Assembly (NCBI GenBank): GCA_051546255.1
Contig: CP128816.1
Coordinates: 496,001 to 560,000, forward strand
Length of the DNA stretch: 64,000 nt
Reading direction: 5' to 3'
DNA from: Meyerozyma guilliermondii
Taxonomy: Eukaryota
The notes under the pieces were generated by a model. That model did not search any database. It had not been told where the DNA came from and saw nothing but the letters and a program-made list of their open reading frames with translations. The translations under genes were made by a program, and so were the position numbers. Numbering within the stretch: position 1 is the stretch's first letter; every line of letters starts with the position of its first letter. This document shows, one piece after another, positions 31,743 through 54,119 of this stretch.

Positions 31743-32408
31743 CTAATATACCGTAGACACCATTCGAACAAATCTGTAGAGTTCCAGCTTCATCCGGAGC
31801 ACCTCTGTGTCTTTAATGGACACTTTGCCGTTCATACGTGAAATTATCTTTCTTGTCACTGCACTAATCTCTTGGTTGGAGAGACCGGTGATTTGAGGAA
31901 AGTCGCGCACGATACGGTCTCTGGTTAAAGCAAGCTTGAAACAGCCCACGATGAGTTTCCGCAAAGTAAAGTCCATACCATTGTAGTTGGCCATGTTGTT
32001 GCACTGGTTCAAGTAGCGGAGCAAATAGACAATATCCATGTAACGGAAAAGGTAGATTATACTCTTCATGAACTCCACTAACGACACCTGAAGTCTACTA
32101 GTTAGTATGAGAAGAAACTTGTCCAAGGGCAACGACCCGTCGATCCGTGAAGCCTGTTCAGGAGGGAACGAATTTTTGATCTTGGCAGCGATGTACTTGA
32201 CGATAACCGTCATCACCTGGTCTCTTTCCTGTTTCAAGCGAGTGCTGTTCTTTTCGTTATTCTCGTTTTCAACGCCACTTTTAGTTACTTCGTTTTCGGC
32301 TTCGTCTTCCTCCGAATCCGAAACGAGCAACGGAACATCATCCACCAATTCACTCATCACCGAGCCCTGCGACTCGGGCGCAGACTCGTCACACGAGTCA
32401 AAATCCAT
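31743..32408 (-). CDS. Uncharacterised protein with a degenerate Pcl/Pho80-type cyclin box
   Basis: Acidic N-terminus, then LPLDKFL..IIYLFRY, RKLIVGCFKLA, QITGLSNQEI..RMNGKVSI pattern; ATG 32408. Confidence 0.55.
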   Translation of the reverse strand: MDFDSCDESAPESQGSVMSELVDDVPLLVSDSEEDEAENEVTKSGVENENNEKNSTRLKQERDQVMTVIVKYIAAKIKNSFPPEQASRIDGSLPLDKFLLILTSRLQVSLVEFMKSIIYLFRYMDIVYLLRYLNQCNNMANYNGMDFTLRKLIVGCFKLALTRDRIVRDFPQITGLSNQEISAVTRKIISRMNGKVSIKDTEVLRMKLELYRFVRMVSTVY

Positions 32409-32724
32409 TTTGCTGACTAGCACGGCATCGGCCGGCGGTTTCACTGCACTGGGACACACACTGGGGAAGGCTAGACCCGACTCTGGGCGGTAATTTATGA
32501 TCATTATTTTATGTGGTTTCTCCTGATCAAAAGCTCGAAATTGTTCCGATCCTGTTGTACAAAACTAGACACGTGGATCCAGCTTAGCACTTCATTGTGA
32601 TGTGAATAAAACGGCCTGGAGAAAAAACTAAAAAGAAATCGGCGTATCAGTTGATGATAGCACTAAAATTCAGTTGATGAACCACAAGAATACAAGAGAA
32701 GAGGAATCCGCGCGCGAAGAGACC

Positions 32725-48574: not shown

Positions 48575-49810
48575 TTACTCAAGAGTCACCGCCAACTGCT
48601 CTTCCGTCATTGGCGTAAACCCGTCCAAAGTATGGGCACCACTCAGCAACCTCAACCGCCCATAAGCAAACTCTGGAATCAATTGCCTGTTCAACAGAGG
48701 ATTCACCGACAACTCTCTATCGTCAAAGTCGAACAACTCTGGCAAGTCTTTTATGTCGGGCTGACTCGAATACAATTGGTAGTTCGCATTGTTTTGATGA
48801 CTGTGCGAAGACACCGACGCCGAGCTATGATACTGCTGTGAAAACAACTTTCTATAATTCGGAAGTTTTGTTTGAGGGTTGCGGAGCTCATCAAAGTATG
48901 GATCCACCAATGCCTCGATACACGACACACGATCCACTGGTGAATACTGCAACACTTTGGTCAAGAATTGAATACAATCGTTGGACATTTTCTTAAATAT
49001 CTTCGATAATGGGATAGGTTTTATCTGGGGGAACTTGTGCTCCATGTAATTAGGGTTCATGTTGCGAATTTGTTCCTTAGATGGAGTTCCCAAAATCTTG
49101 ATAATCTCCACCAATTGGTCGATACCGGATTCTCCAGGGAACAACGGCTGTCCCAAAATTAGCTCGGCCATTACACAACCAGCAGACCACACGTCGATCT
49201 TGGTGGTGTAAATTGTAGCGCCAAAGATAAGCTCGGGAGCACGGTAGTACCGAGAGCAAATGTACGACACATTAGGTTCGCTAGGGTTCAAGATTTTTGC
49301 AGAACCAAAGTCACAAAGCTTGAGTTCACCAGTGTCAGCGTTGACAAGCAAATTTTGAGGCTTGATGTCTCTATGACAAATACCCTGCGAGTGGATAAAG
49401 CTGAGAGCTCTGAGCATTTGATAAGTGTAGAGCTTTACCTCCAAAGGAGGCATAGATAAACGCTTGGATACATAGTAATGCAGTGCACGATAGAGGGTTT
49501 CCGGCACAAATTCCAAGATCAAATTGAGGTACAACTCGTTTTTTTCATTGTGTTTGTAGAAGTAATACTTCATGTCAACAACGTTGCGATGATGAACCAA
49601 CTTCATAATCTGAAGCTCTCTATTTTTGAACCGCTTATCTTGCAATATCCGCTTAATAGCCGCAATTTCGTTGGTGGGCAAAATCTGCGTCTGGAACACC
49701 ACTCCAAAAGAGCCGTGTCCCACCATTTGAGATTGAGTATATTGAATATCTCTAATCTCGCCATTATGGCCGTCTGTTACCCGCTCGGTAATGACTTCTA
49801 TTTTGGACAT
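48575..49810 (-). CDS. RIM11: GSK3 kinase: short (Rim11-like) isoform, and exon 2 (from 49797) of the long isoform
   Basis: [62 protein letters not shown]. Confidence 0.95.
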
Positions 49811-50223
49811 GTTAGTACAACAATATAAGAATTTTTTGGTTCCTCAGCAACAAATCAAGCAGAGTTTGAAAAAAAGATATAAAAGGAATGAATGGATTGT
49901 ATGCCGACCAGAAACAACTTTAAGGCTTGAAAAAAGAAAATGACTGTTCAAAGAGTGGTGAGATTAAAAGATGCCTTCAAATTGTCTGGCTTTTAACAAT
50001 TGCAGGTCCTTCTTCCATCCACTGATTCCAAGATCAAATCACCACTGGCGCGAAATCGAACTTTATAAGTTGAACGCTGGTCACGCACAGGGTTATTGAT
50101 CGGGACACGAATGCCCCCGCACAAGCCATATGCAGGGGACTGGTCAATGCCTGGGGTAGTGGAGAAGGACCATCAAGTACCATTTGTCAAGGAACCAGAA
50201 AAATAAAAAAAAAAGTAACTTAC
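49798..50223 (-). other. Spliceosomal intron (426 nt) of the GSK3 gene
   Basis: Donor GTAAGT 50223-50218, perfect branch TACTAAC 49817-49811, acceptor TAG 49800-49798; phase-1 join keeps the frame (ATT G|AA GTC). Confidence 0.9.
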
Positions 50224-51214
50224 CAATTTGCTCGCTCATTCTTCTGCGAGGATCGAGCTTGAGTTTCAATAAATTAGTCTTCTTGCTTCGAGAAGAGGTC
50301 ATATTAGACTTTGTAGCATCGTAACTGGACGACACATGTAATTCGTTGTCATCATTAGAGCCTGGGGTTTCCTCACCTGAGCTCAAATTACCCATTAAAA
50401 TGTTGACAAACTTGCTAGCAATTGAATTGTGTCTCTTGTTACTAGACTGGGTACTTGAACGGCGCATCCGTGTGGAAATTACCAGGGACCGATTCGTGCC
50501 AGACGACTCCTTGGCCAGAAGCTGAGACTCTTCGAAAGTGGGCGGTTTGGACCCGAAAGGGTTTCTGAACGTAAGCTCGTCAGCCTCGTCGATTTTGGGC
50601 GCCATGACGTTGACGTTGATGTGGTTGTGGATGTGAACGTCTTTGGATCTAGCAGCATTGGAATTGCCATTTGAACTGGAAGCATGGGAAGCACCATCGT
50701 TTAGATGGGCATTTGCGCCGTTCAAGTTGGCTCCGTTTGAGTTAGCAGCATTACCGTTTGAGTTACCGTTCAAGTTCGGATTGGTGATGTGTCGTGGGTA
50801 TGCCTGCTGCTGCTTCGAACGAACCTGTTGTTCTTGGCGCAATTCCCGTCTTTCTTGCCTTTGTTGCTGGCGAAGATCCCGTTTTTCCTCGCGATTATGC
50901 TTGCGTTCTTCTTTCTTTTCTTCACGCAACGCCCGCTTCTCCTCTCTACGTTCGTGTTTTTGTTCCTGGCGCTGCTTTTTCTTGACGTGGCGATTTGCCT
51001 GGGCATAGATCGGCTTATCAGATATCAAATCCTTGATCATGGGGGTTGGCGCCTCGACATTATGGATATATTGTGGGTAATACTTGTAGACACAAAATTT
51101 GCGTTCGAGTTCTTCGTAGTTGAGATGGTCGATGAAGTCTCGATCCGACGGAACCTTGTCGCTTCCATTGAGAGACAACTTATTGAGGCCCTTTGTAAGC
51201 ATGGTAGCAGTCAT
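50224..51214 (-). CDS. Exon 1 of the long (Mrk1-like) GSK3 isoform; spliced product 737 aa
   Basis: 991-nt open frame ending exactly at the donor; the unspliced ORF tail degenerates into poly-T-encoded FFLFFW. Confidence 0.82.
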
Positions 51215-51743
51215 AATGTATCAAAAATGATTGTTTGGGAAGGTTCAATATGAGGTATTAGCAGGTTTTTGTACTTTTAGTTGTGGCGGATGCAAATGGG
51301 ATATGGTGGAAAAGCAAGCTTTATTGAAATTAACCAGCAACGTCAAAAAGTATAACCATGAACTCGTGTCACTCTTTTTAGGACCCTGGCATGTAAAATA
51401 GTAATCGGACAGCACGGTGCCTGCACTACCTGGGGTGTCGAGAAATGAGGGGAAAATCATCCCGCATCGACCCCTCATTTTATGTCGATTATAGGCAAGC
51501 GAACATTGGGGAACAATGGCGGATAAAAACTAGAGATTTCTGTACTGATTTGGGAAACGAGAACTGGTCAGAGACATGATTTGATGGCTGGACACGATGC
51601 TGATAGCGCATGTCAACCACGAGGCTTGTTGAGCTATCGGAGCGCAAGTTGGGCGATTACGTCATGGTCTGGGGAAATGCGCCGTGATGGGAATGTGCAG
51701 CGCGGGCTCGCAACCGGAACCGTTTTTCAGTTTAAACAGCCTA

Positions 51744-52688
51744 TTAGTTCCGGTTAAGCCATGCTAATAATTTTGCAGCCAGAAGACGTTTTGTCGGCTC
51801 GTACACCGCCACCGATTGAAATGCAGTTTTTATGATGGGATCATTGCATCGCGGAAGCAATTTTTCAATGGGTAGCGAGTCGTAACTTTCGAACCGAAAA
51901 GACTTGAAATGGTATCGATCGTTATTCATTACCGGCCAATATCGAGAATGTTTTGGGTCTAGGGACGGTGTGCCCAAGGCTTTAAACATAGAATTGATCA
52001 ATACAATATCGGAGTCTCCCAGTTTTATTGGCGGCAGACCATCGGCAGAATAGAGAGCAGTGAACAATATGCCTAAAGACCACATATCGACTTCGTAGCT
52101 GTAATTGGATACACCGAAGCAAACCTCTGGCGGCTTGTAACTTCCAGAACAAATATCGAGGTATTTTTCGTGTTCGGGTTCGTCCGAGTATCCTGTCTCG
52201 TACGAGATGCCAAAGTCACCAAGTATAGGTTCGCTTTCTGGAGAAGAAAAGTAGATGTTGGCTGGTTTCACATCTCGGTGGATGATCTTGTTGGCATGAA
52301 CATACTCAAGGGCTTTTGTAATACCCAAAATGATTGACTTTGCCAAATTCAATGGAAGTTCATTTTTGTGCACCGTTGAAGGACCGGTATTCAAATCGAA
52401 TTTTGTTTGCTTTCTGGCATAATGACTAATCAATTGGTTTAAGTCGAACTGGTACAACGGCGTGACAAGCACACGGTCTTCCCCAGAACGATACAGATCC
52501 AAATAAAGAAGAACATTTGGATGCGATAACTTTTTCACAAGTGCTATTTCGTGCTCAATGTCATGTGGTTTGAAACAAAGATCAATATCCACAATCTTAA
52601 GTGCCACAGCTTTGCCATTTGAATCTCTGGCTCTCAAAATGTCGCTGTGGGGACCACGATATATGGCTTCTTCGTGTACGTAACTCAT
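51744..52688 (-). CDS. CAK1: CDK-activating kinase Cak1
   Basis: Kinase lacking the Gly-rich loop; ALKIVD..KPHDIEHE, IIHRDVKPANI, DFGISY, SGSYKPPEVCFG, DMWSLG; ATG 52688. Confidence 0.8.
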   Translation of the reverse strand: MSYVHEEAIYRGPHSDILRARDSNGKAVALKIVDIDLCFKPHDIEHEIALVKKLSHPNVLLYLDLYRSGEDRVLVTPLYQFDLNQLISHYARKQTKFDLNTGPSTVHKNELPLNLAKSIILGITKALEYVHANKIIHRDVKPANIYFSSPESEPILGDFGISYETGYSDEPEHEKYLDICSGSYKPPEVCFGVSNYSYEVDMWSLGILFTALYSADGLPPIKLGDSDIVLINSMFKALGTPSLDPKHSRYWPVMNNDRYHFKSFRFESYDSLPIEKLLPRCNDPIIKTAFQSVAVYEPTKRLLAAKLLAWLNRN

Positions 52689-52811
52689 GGTGGATGGATA
52701 CTTTTGCGAGTACAAGATTGCGAGGACTGCATAATAGAGGGAGGGTACAATAGAGAACAAGAAACAGAAATAGTAGATGGAAAGGTAGTAGGATAGGTCG
52801 TATGTCATTTT

Positions 52812-54119
52812 CTATTTATGCCTCTTTCGACCAGCGCCGTCTTCAAAATTCAGTCGTTTTGCAGGCGCCTGATTGGACATAATATCATTATCATCGGTGT
52901 AGATTCGTCTTTTTGGGTAGGTTACGTTTAGGCCTTCGAATGCATTTTGGGTCACCTTGGGAGCTTCTAGAAAGAACTCGTGCACAAGGGCATTATCTGC
53001 ACTGAGTCGGGACATTGGTTCGTACTCGAGTAAACTCAAAAGAAGATTTAAACACCGCTTATTGGTTCTTCCTATAGCCTTATACCAGCTCACCAAATTG
53101 GGTGGATACTTGTGGGTAATTTGTTGTTGGAATGCAGGATACTCGGGGTATTTATCGAGCGAGGGCCACTGTGCTAGCGTGGGAGTACCCAAGATTTCGA
53201 CGATTTTTTGGATTTGGTTTTTCTGAAATGGAACCAGTTTCTTATTGTTCATATCAATTTTCGCCTCTTCGCCTTTAAATATAGGCCGCAAGCTCAAAAG
53301 CTCGGCCAAAATGCATCCTATGGCCCAGAGGTCTATAGCTGGCGAATAATGACGAGCCCCCAAGAGCAATTCGGGTGCTCTATACCAGATAGTCACCACC
53401 ACTTTATCGCCCGAGTACAAGCTTTGAAGAGGATTATTGAACTTTCGAGCAAGACCCAAATCGCCAATTTTCACCACTCCGTTGCTCAGAACCATAATAT
53501 TGGCCGGTTTCAAGTCGCGATGAAAAATCCAGTTTTTATGAAGAAACGTTACTCCGTTCAAAATTTGCCAGGTGAGCGACTTGATGGTGGCTTCGGGGAT
53601 GGGTTTGATTTCCGGGTGCGAGTGGAAGTGGATGATCTGGAGCAAGTCGTGCTCACAGAATTCAAAAATAAGGTAAATAGACTTGTTCTCTAAAATCACA
53701 TCCACCACCTTGATGATATTCTTGTGAGATAATTCTCGACAAAGTGACATTTCTCGGATAGCCGATTGCGAGATCCCCGTATATAGCATCACCTCTTTTC
53801 CATTCATGTCGTGACCGTGACTTTTAGCCGACAGATGATTTTCACTTTTGAACTTTTTTATCGCAAATAATTGAGGCTCAGCAGTGTGTTCTTGTTGATT
53901 GGTTTTCGATCTGGCCTTGTAAACCTTACCGTAGGTACCAGCAGCAATGTACCCAATGGTCTGGTACCGAGATAGTACCGATTCTCGTGTCAAATCTTTG
54001 CGGTGCTTATATGGACCAATTGTGAGTATGGTATTCAGAGCCATCAATGATGGCTGAGGAACAGAGGGTATGCTATTTCGAGGACGTGTGTTTGAGTATA
54101 CGTTGTACCCGTAGCTCAT
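52812..54119 (-). CDS. SSN3: Mediator kinase Cdk8/Ssn3
   Basis: [71 protein letters not shown]. Confidence 0.97.

What the first reader, a model, noticed from the sequence alone, without database searches (positions are those of the whole stretch)
48575..51214. One GSK3 gene, two proteins: the short-isoform ATG lies between the intron branch point and acceptor
Seen: the apparent orphan ORF 50144-51214 has a GTAAGT donor at 50223. The kinase ORF start reads TACTAAC-ATG-TCC-AAA-ATAG, so a perfect branch point abuts the ATG and the acceptor TAG lies within codons 4-5. Splicing joins the two in frame, giving a 737-aa kinase with a 330-aa N-terminal extension. The intron also holds a minus-strand TATAAA (50067-50062) and CGCGAAA (50049-50055), consistent with an internal promoter for the 411-aa form. 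Established: S. cerevisiae has intron-containing, N-extended MRK1 and intronless RIM11 as paralogues. Inference: here both forms come from one locus by alternative promoters, and the same 13 nt serve as intron end and as coding start. Similar arrangements may already be described in other yeasts.
Basis: partly seen in the sequence, partly recalled or inferred. Interest (0 to 1): 0.78.

Follow-up and report, generated by a model that had tools for sequence, protein, structure and literature searches.

The report
Yeast GSK3 gene, two start sites
This yeast's single Rim11/GSK3 kinase gene makes a long spliced protein and, from a promoter and start codon inside its intron, a short one; the design is shared across Candida-type yeasts and already annotated in Candida albicans, but its intronic promoter appears to be bound by the metabolic regulators Rtg1/Rtg3.

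Summary
All coordinates check out: a 426-nt phase-1 intron (50223-49798) joins the orphan ORF to the kinase, giving 737 aa, identical to an NCBI Meyerozyma guilliermondii protein. The layout is conserved across CUG-clade yeasts: the donor signature appears in 73 of 75 exon-1 homologues, and TACTAAC, an in-frame ATG and the acceptor recur in 8 of 8 fetched loci. ATGs are depleted before the branch point (3 seen, 26.8 expected), as in a 5' leader. C. albicans already has both models (spliced orf19.792; RIM11, whose RNA-seq transcript starts inside the intron), and S. cerevisiae MRK1 itself makes long and short forms this way. So the design is known. A shared GGTCACGnA motif is (5 of 6 species); in C. 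albicans it maps to the centre of a published Rtg1/Rtg3 ChIP peak, and the two 5' ends move oppositely in white versus opaque cells. I found no paper describing these points. No RNA or protein data from this organism could be checked. Homology to the MRK1 intron is untested.

The parts
50224..51214 (-). Exon 1 coding part (330 codons + 1 nt): N-terminal extension of the long isoform; annotated as an orphan gene in many genomes
50996..51145 (-). Conserved small helical module (residues 24-73; YxxLE, KYYP, HN, TP, KP.Y); no Pfam, PDB or Atlas match
50804..50992 (-). Long charged helix (residues 75-137, pLDDT about 90-97), likely coiled coil or single alpha-helix
50306..50326 (-). Conserved S[FY]DxTKS motif (residues 297-303) in a predicted disordered linker
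50234..50248 (-). RRRMS: basic-basic-x-S/T (PKA-type consensus, recalled) just before the junction, long form only; includes ATG 50239 (M326, not conserved)
   Evidence: 59 of 74 homologues carry [RK][RK]x[ST] within 10 aa of the junction
50218..50223 (-). 5' splice site GTAAGT (phase 1)
49798..50223 (-). Intron, 426 nt, stops in all three frames; holds the inferred promoter and 5' leader of the short form
50079..50087 (+). GGTCACGCA: conserved GGTCACGnA motif containing the Rtg1/Rtg3 site GTCAC; candidate activator site of the intronic promoter
50062..50067 (-). TATAAA, 257 nt before the short ATG and 12 nt past the motif; plausible TATA box here, not positionally conserved
50049..50055 (+).
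49811..50015 (-). ATG-free stretch (last upstream ATG at 50018): inferred 5' leader of the short mRNA
49811..49817 (-). Branch point TACTAAC; also supplies A at -3 of the short start codon
49798..49810 (-). Dual-use 13 nt: start codon and first codons of the short form; 3' end of the intron with acceptor TAG
48575..49797 (-). Exon 2: GSK3/Rim11 kinase domain and C-terminal tail, shared by both forms (short CDS 49810-48575, 411 aa)

Best explanation
This is the single RIM11-type GSK3 gene of a Meyerozyma yeast, read from two promoters. An upstream promoter (before 51214) gives a pre-mRNA spliced at 50223/49798 into a 737-aa kinase with a 330-aa extension (small helical module, long charged helix, disordered linker ending in a PKA-type site). 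A second promoter inside the intron, probably activated by Rtg1/Rtg3 at GGTCACGCA (50079-50087), gives an unspliced mRNA with an ATG-free leader of roughly 200 nt; its first ATG, just after the branch point and with A at -3, starts the 411-aa kinase. Shown here: the signals, both frames, their conservation and the ATG depletion. Shown in C. albicans by others: both transcript models, Rtg1/3 binding in the intron. Inferred: both mRNAs and proteins in this species, the role of the motif, that the short form is the major one, and that the extension adds localisation or PKA control.
For: Frame and signals; 737-aa product identical to NCBI XXZ98949.1; one RIM11-type locus in the genome, next best 44%. 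Donor read-through signature in 74 of 75 exon-1 homologues that reach the junction region, 73 after removing one doubtful hit (P0263); background 48 of 450 stretches. TACTAAC 0-6 nt before an in-frame ATG in 8 of 8 metagenome loci (5 species; 4 loci are C. albicans); the branch-to-ATG gap varies freely (0, 1, 5, 6) while ATG-to-AG changes by a whole codon (13 or 16) and -3 is always A. Met 1-5 codons before the acceptor residue in 42 of 43 short-annotated clusters. ATGs in the 300 nt before the branch point: 3 seen, 26.8 expected, 0 of 2000 shuffles; CAT 35; only 1 of 30 other branch-point-like loci has no ATG in 200 nt. P0163 (655 aa, junction matching L009) lies on a 2,496-bp contig, too short to hold L009's 1,276-nt intron, so it is probably a spliced transcript. 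C. albicans: orf19.792 two exons, RIM11 transcript start 899222 inside the intron, ATG 16 nt before exon 2. GGTCACGnA in 5 of 6 introns, 1 of 200 shuffles; 79 GGTCACGMA sites in the genome; estimated C. albicans position 898990-898998 versus Rtg1 and Rtg3 peak midpoints 898994.5 and 899005.5.
Against: No reads, start-site map or peptides from this organism were available. The C. albicans RIM11 start is coverage-based (scenario f), not cap-mapped. The motif was picked after the fact, and L010 lacks the full 9-mer. In C. albicans the motif lies 231 nt upstream of the mapped transcript edge. L009 has two ATGs 59 and 23 nt before its start. One cluster (P0020) has its Met inside exon 2. 15 of 74 homologues lack the PKA-type site. 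The six introns come from related species, so they are not independent draws.
Confidence: 0.88

Rival explanations
1. Only the long spliced kinase is made; the intronic ATG is a by-product of constraints on the branch point and acceptor.
For: Splice signals are perfect and conserved; gene callers will pick any in-frame ATG, so short annotations alone are not proof.
Against: The ATG stays in frame while its spacing changes; leader-like ATG depletion; C. albicans coverage begins inside the intron and a crude two-isoform split of published counts gives the short form 79-89%; a transcriptome ORF of the short type is listed as complete (P0236).
Confidence: 0.04
2. The short protein comes from intron-retaining transcripts of the upstream promoter (reinitiation or leaky scanning), not from a second promoter.
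For: Retention and internal starts are hard to separate in RNA-seq; Hurtig 2020 leaves both open for MTR2, APE2 and GCR1.
Against: A 356-codon ORF and four intronic ATGs precede the start; depletion is confined to the 3' part of the introns; C. albicans coverage covers only the last 339 of 785 intron bases; the two 5' regions change in opposite directions between cell types; factors bind in the intron.
Confidence: 0.05
3. Two separate genes: an orphan 356-aa protein and an intronless kinase, as the default annotation has it.
For: Both ORFs are in NCBI as separate entries (P0001, P0002), and likewise in Debaryomyces and Candidozyma.
Against: Homology of the orphan stops at the donor and the tails are unrelated; donor signature 73 of 75; 16 distinct long entries join at the same residue; probable spliced transcript contigs.
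Confidence: 0.02

Closest known systems
C. albicans orf19.792 (C2_04280W, 697 aa) / RIM11 (orf19.791, C2_04290W, 409 aa)
   Same: Orthologous locus, same phase-1 intron, ATG between branch point and acceptor, both models annotated, transcript start inside the intron.
   Different: Intron 785 versus 426 nt; ATG 16 versus 13 nt before exon 2 and 6 versus 0 nt after the branch point. The kinase-library paper lists the two as separate mutants; Tuch 2010 does not name them in its main text.
S. cerevisiae MRK1 (Zhou, Sternglanz, Neiman 2017, PMC5685637)
   Same: GSK3 gene with N-terminal-extension exon, intronic start site, intronic in-frame ATG, two proteins seen by western.
   Different: 11 intron-coded residues rather than 4; driven by Ndt80 at an MSE and meiosis-specific; the window intron has no CACAAA. 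MRK1's intron is reported only in Saccharomyces sensu stricto. Here the short form seems to be the main vegetative form (C. albicans estimate).
APE2/AAP1 and GCR1 of Saccharomycetaceae (Hurtig et al. 2020, PMC7491326)
   Same: Conserved AUG near the intron end with a possible intronic start site, giving two N-termini; AAP1 lost the upstream form after genome duplication.
   Different: Different genes; the APE2 extension is a mitochondrial targeting peptide. That paper has 0 occurrences of RIM11 or GSK.
Pezizomycotina GSK3 genes with a short first exon
   Same: Six database entries depart from the usual N-terminus at or next to the same residue, 26 aa before the glycine loop, with donor- or acceptor-like read-through (P0050, P0090, P0110, P0114, P0339, P0340), hinting at an old intron at this position.
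   Different: Their N-terminal part is about 15 aa. Protein-level hint only; no genomic DNA was seen.

Membership tests
GSK-3 / Rim11 kinases | Kinase domain closest to GSK-3 structures | tested here: met
   51 PDB sequences at E<=1e-100, nearly all named GSK-3; best 4e7w, E 9.9e-142
GSK-3 / Rim11 kinases | Activation-loop [12 protein letters not shown] and the three basic primed-phosphate pocket residues (their role is recalled) | tested here: met
   KNREL at 62, HRDIKPQN at 146, DFGSAK at 167, [12 protein letters not shown] at 182
GSK-3 / Rim11 kinases | Orthology to C. albicans RIM11 | tested here: met
   80% identity to the cluster holding C. albicans MDS1/RIM11; single such locus in the genome; downstream neighbour shared in 5 of 8 loci
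Intronic-promoter, intronic-ATG two-isoform genes (MRK1/APE2/GCR1 type) | Intron whose removal joins an upstream exon in frame | tested here: met
   (sequence and conservation; junction reads not seen in this species)
Intronic-promoter, intronic-ATG two-isoform genes (MRK1/APE2/GCR1 type) | Conserved in-frame ATG inside the intron | tested here: met
   8 of 8 loci; 42 of 43 clusters
Intronic-promoter, intronic-ATG two-isoform genes (MRK1/APE2/GCR1 type) | Transcription start inside the intron | tested here: inconclusive
   Indirect in this species (ATG depletion; motif); coverage-based in C. albicans
Intronic-promoter, intronic-ATG two-isoform genes (MRK1/APE2/GCR1 type) | Both proteins are made | not testable with these tools
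   No proteomics or ribosome profiling available
MRK1 locus proper | Ndt80 site (MSE) in the intron | tested here: not met
   No CACAAA on either strand in 49700-50300; the word occurs in 4 of 6 species' introns at no common position
MRK1 locus proper | Exon 1 and intron position homologous to MRK1's | tested here: inconclusive
   No Mrk1 sequence was returned; the exon-1 profile hit no kinase-bearing protein among 94 hits, but that library holds one representative per 50% cluster

The most novel reading that the evidence does not exclude
The GSK3 of CUG-clade yeasts is a regulated isoform switch. Rtg1/Rtg3 (with Tye7) drive an intronic promoter for a bare kinase, while a separately controlled upstream promoter makes a form with an undescribed clade-wide helical module and a PKA-type site beside the kinase, so the long-to-short ratio follows metabolic state and cell type (long share about 11% in white, 21% in opaque C. 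albicans by a crude estimate). In the boldest version the intron is an old ascomycete intron at the same position as in filamentous fungi and in MRK1, and RIM11/MRK1 descend from such a dual gene, against the published view of a recent MRK1 intron gain.
Probability: 0.3. Interest if true: 0.62.

Novelty: new member of a known kind. Interest (0 to 1): 0.4.

Why it matters
It fixes a recurring annotation error: an orphan gene upstream of RIM11 in many CUG-clade genomes is exon 1 of a second GSK3 isoform. It affects how kinase-deletion data are read in C. albicans, where rim11 and orf19.792 are listed as separate mutants although removing the RIM11 ORF must remove the kinase domain of both forms. 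It links, testably, the Rtg1/Rtg3 regulators to a specific GSK3 isoform. It offers a compact case of one 20-nt stretch under splicing and translation constraints at once, and a second yeast case, convergent or ancestral, of the MRK1 design.

Tried and rejected
RNA evidence in this organism: not available, so junction and start site remain unseen. First donor-signature count was faulty (the pattern caught RRMS) and was redone; there P0135 was hit at the wrong place though it has a true GMY, P0263 is probably spurious, P0149 has none, and 5 of 80 sequences lack the anchor motif and were left out. CGCGAAA and TATAAA as conserved elements: rejected. A conserved third form from M326: rejected, Met is not conserved there. 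Exon-1 family assignment: Pfam 0 families for P0002, PDB profile hits to the charged helix only, Atlas none usable, Foldseek none at E<=0.001. Full-length model failed (mean pLDDT 39), so docking of the linker on the kinase is untested; mixed alignment A2 was poor and unused. Attempts to obtain Mrk1 or other Saccharomycetaceae sequences failed (scans gave 12 loci, none a yeast GSK3). Bacterial promoter scan irrelevant. Kramara 2024 and Ramirez-Zavala 2022 main texts do not mention RIM11 or orf19.792. The 2007 C. albicans intron survey (recalled as a possible source of the orf19.792 model) could not be read. One Hooks 2014 supplementary file was not searched and the other was cut; these may bear on the MRK1 question.

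Full report
OBSERVATION. The region is on the minus strand of a yeast genome of 10.66 Mb in 8 contigs. The protein's cluster holds Meyerozyma entries, so table 12 was used. Every coordinate is right: donor GTAAGT at 50223, branch point TACTAAC 49817-49811, ATG 49810, acceptor TAG 49800-49798 as the first AG after the branch point. The intron is 426 nt, phase 1, with stops in all frames. Splicing gives 737 aa, letter for letter an NCBI M. guilliermondii protein, XXZ98949.1. The 411-aa and 356-aa ORFs are also in NCBI as separate entries. The kinase is a GSK-3 and the only RIM11-type copy in the genome.

THE LONG FORM. Exon-1 homologues were gathered by word search (27 hits), profile search (94 hits, 58 at E<=1e-10) and cluster listings. 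Of 80 distinct sequences examined, 75 reach the conserved S[FY]DxT motif. 74 of these show, 22-62 aa later, the read-through of a phase-1 donor (x-GT then AAG, ATG or ACG); 73 after dropping one doubtful hit; background is 48 of 450 stretches. Similarity ends at that point. Sixteen distinct long entries join at the same residue, from Candida, Diutina, Scheffersomyces, Meyerozyma and JGI contigs. P0163 (655 aa) matches locus L009 across the junction but sits on a 2,496-bp contig that cannot hold L009's 1,276-nt intron, so it is most likely a spliced transcript (inference).

THE SHORT FORM. One metagenome scan for the glycine-loop region returned 8 loci: 4 C. albicans and 4 other species. All 8 have TACTAAC 0-6 nt before an in-frame ATG; the 7 with enough flank have a canonical donor ending a homologous exon 1. 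The branch-to-ATG gap is 0, 1, 5 or 6 nt, whereas ATG-to-AG is 13 or 16 nt, and position -3 is always A. This is what use as a start codon predicts. In 42 of 43 short-annotated clusters a Met lies 1-5 codons before the acceptor residue. In six species (window plus five loci) the 300 nt before the branch point hold 3 ATGs against 26.8 in shuffles (0 of 2000) and 35 CATs, while the 5' parts of the same introns hold 31 ATGs. Among 30 other branch-point-like loci of this genome (the first 30 of 319 matches, not verified introns) only 1 lacks ATG in the 200 nt upstream. L009 is a partial exception with two nearby ATGs.

THE PROMOTER. CGCGAAA is in the window's intron only and TATA-like words have no shared position. 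An unbiased search found GGTCACGnA in 5 of 6 introns, a level reached by 1 of 200 shuffles; GGTCACGMA occurs 79 times in the genome. It contains GTCAC, which Perez et al. 2013 give as the Rtg1/3 site (PMC3601966, passages). Their ChIP table lists Rtg1 and Rtg3 peaks at chr2 898745-899244 and 898756-899255, inside the C. albicans intron, and lists RIM11 as an Rtg1/3 and Tye7 target that is up in the gut (supplements). Carrying over the 554-nt distance seen in three C. albicans loci puts the motif at 898990-898998; the peak midpoints are 898994.5 and 899005.5. I looked up the ChIP table after finding the motif. In the window the motif is at 50079-50087, 12 nt before TATAAA and just upstream of the ATG-free stretch.

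WHAT IS KNOWN. Tuch et al. 2010 (PMC2924316; supplements and passages) list orf19.792 with two exons and RIM11 with a coverage-defined start 323 nt before its ATG, inside the 785-nt intron, the ATG 16 nt before exon 2. Opaque versus white, the orf19.792 5' UTR rises (log2 +1.22; row 34 of 11,230) and the RIM11 5' UTR falls (-1.18); the main text does not name either. A crude split of their counts gives the long form 11% in white and 21% in opaque cells (assumes even coverage). Zhou et al. 2017 (PMC5685637; passages and sections 16 and 18) show that S. cerevisiae MRK1 makes both a full-length and a short kinase from an Ndt80-driven intronic start and intronic ATG. They and Hooks et al. 2014 (PMC4202332; passage and part of the supplements) report that intron only in Saccharomyces sensu stricto. 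Hurtig et al. 2020 (PMC7491326; passages) describe the same design for APE2 and GCR1 and do not mention GSK3. Moslinger et al. 2026 (PMC13556258; passages and supplements) use separate rim11 and orf19.792 mutants: rim11 reached a lower plateau in both media, orf19.792 in YPD only; what the latter deletion removes was not seen. Nine full-text searches found no paper on the clade-wide arrangement or on Rtg1/3 control of RIM11; the library lacks most subscription papers.

THE EXTENSION. A model from 56 homologues gives a small helical module (residues 24-73), a long confident helix (75-137) and a disordered remainder. No Pfam, PDB, Atlas or Foldseek match was found. A basic-basic-x-S/T site lies within 10 aa of the junction in 59 of 74 homologues. 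From recalled knowledge, N-terminal phosphorylation inhibits mammalian GSK-3 by filling the primed-substrate pocket; the long form may gain such control. This is inference; the full-length model failed.

ORIGIN. Six filamentous-ascomycete entries deviate from the usual N-terminus at or next to the same residue with splice-like read-through, hinting that the intron position is old and that the CUG clade enlarged exon 1 and added the intronic start. Whether MRK1's intron is the same one could not be tested.

VERDICT. Real, conserved, and most likely a two-promoter, two-protein gene (0.88). The design is known from MRK1, APE2 and GCR1, and the orthologous locus is annotated this way in C. albicans. 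What appears unreported is its conservation across the clade, the undescribed exon-1 module, and the conserved Rtg1/3 site in the intronic promoter. Interest 0.4.

Noticed in passing
window 48575-54119 (-): Three kinase genes in a row on one strand: a CDK8/SSN3-like ORF (52812-54119), a CAK1-like ORF (51744-52808) beginning 3 nt after its stop, then this GSK3. The names are recalled from the translations, not tested.
   Followed up: partly
window 49795-49800 (-): Tandem acceptor TAG-AAG; use of the second gives an in-frame 736-aa form lacking one residue.
   Followed up: no
L009, 59 and 23 nt before the short ATG: Two upstream ATGs in one frame; by eye they open a short ORF that stops in the TAA of the branch point, 4 nt before the main ATG: a possible translational control in that species.
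   Followed up: no
protein P0345: A 502-aa yeast-type GSK3 with a long, uninterrupted Asn-rich N-terminal extension not hit by the exon-1 profile: another lineage may extend the kinase without this intron.
   Followed up: no
proteins P0151, P0154: Both parts of this Meyerozyma locus are in NCBI under the basidiomycete name Naganishia cerealis, suggesting a contaminated or mislabelled assembly.
   Followed up: no
proteins P0174, P0045: Rim11 orthologues named HOG1/Hog1p in Candida africana and Candida jaroonii: misannotation.
   Followed up: no
window 32101-32107 (-): The only other TACTAAC in the window lies inside the open 253-aa ORF 31743-32504; probably not an intron.
   Followed up: partly
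window 51368-51372 (-): One GTCAC-type word and no TATA[AT]A on the minus strand between the CAK1-like stop and the exon-1 ATG (upstream promoter region).
   Followed up: no
L053, L055: Eukaryotic GSK3-like coding stretches in contigs filed under bacterial MAGs: likely eukaryotic contamination.
   Followed up: no
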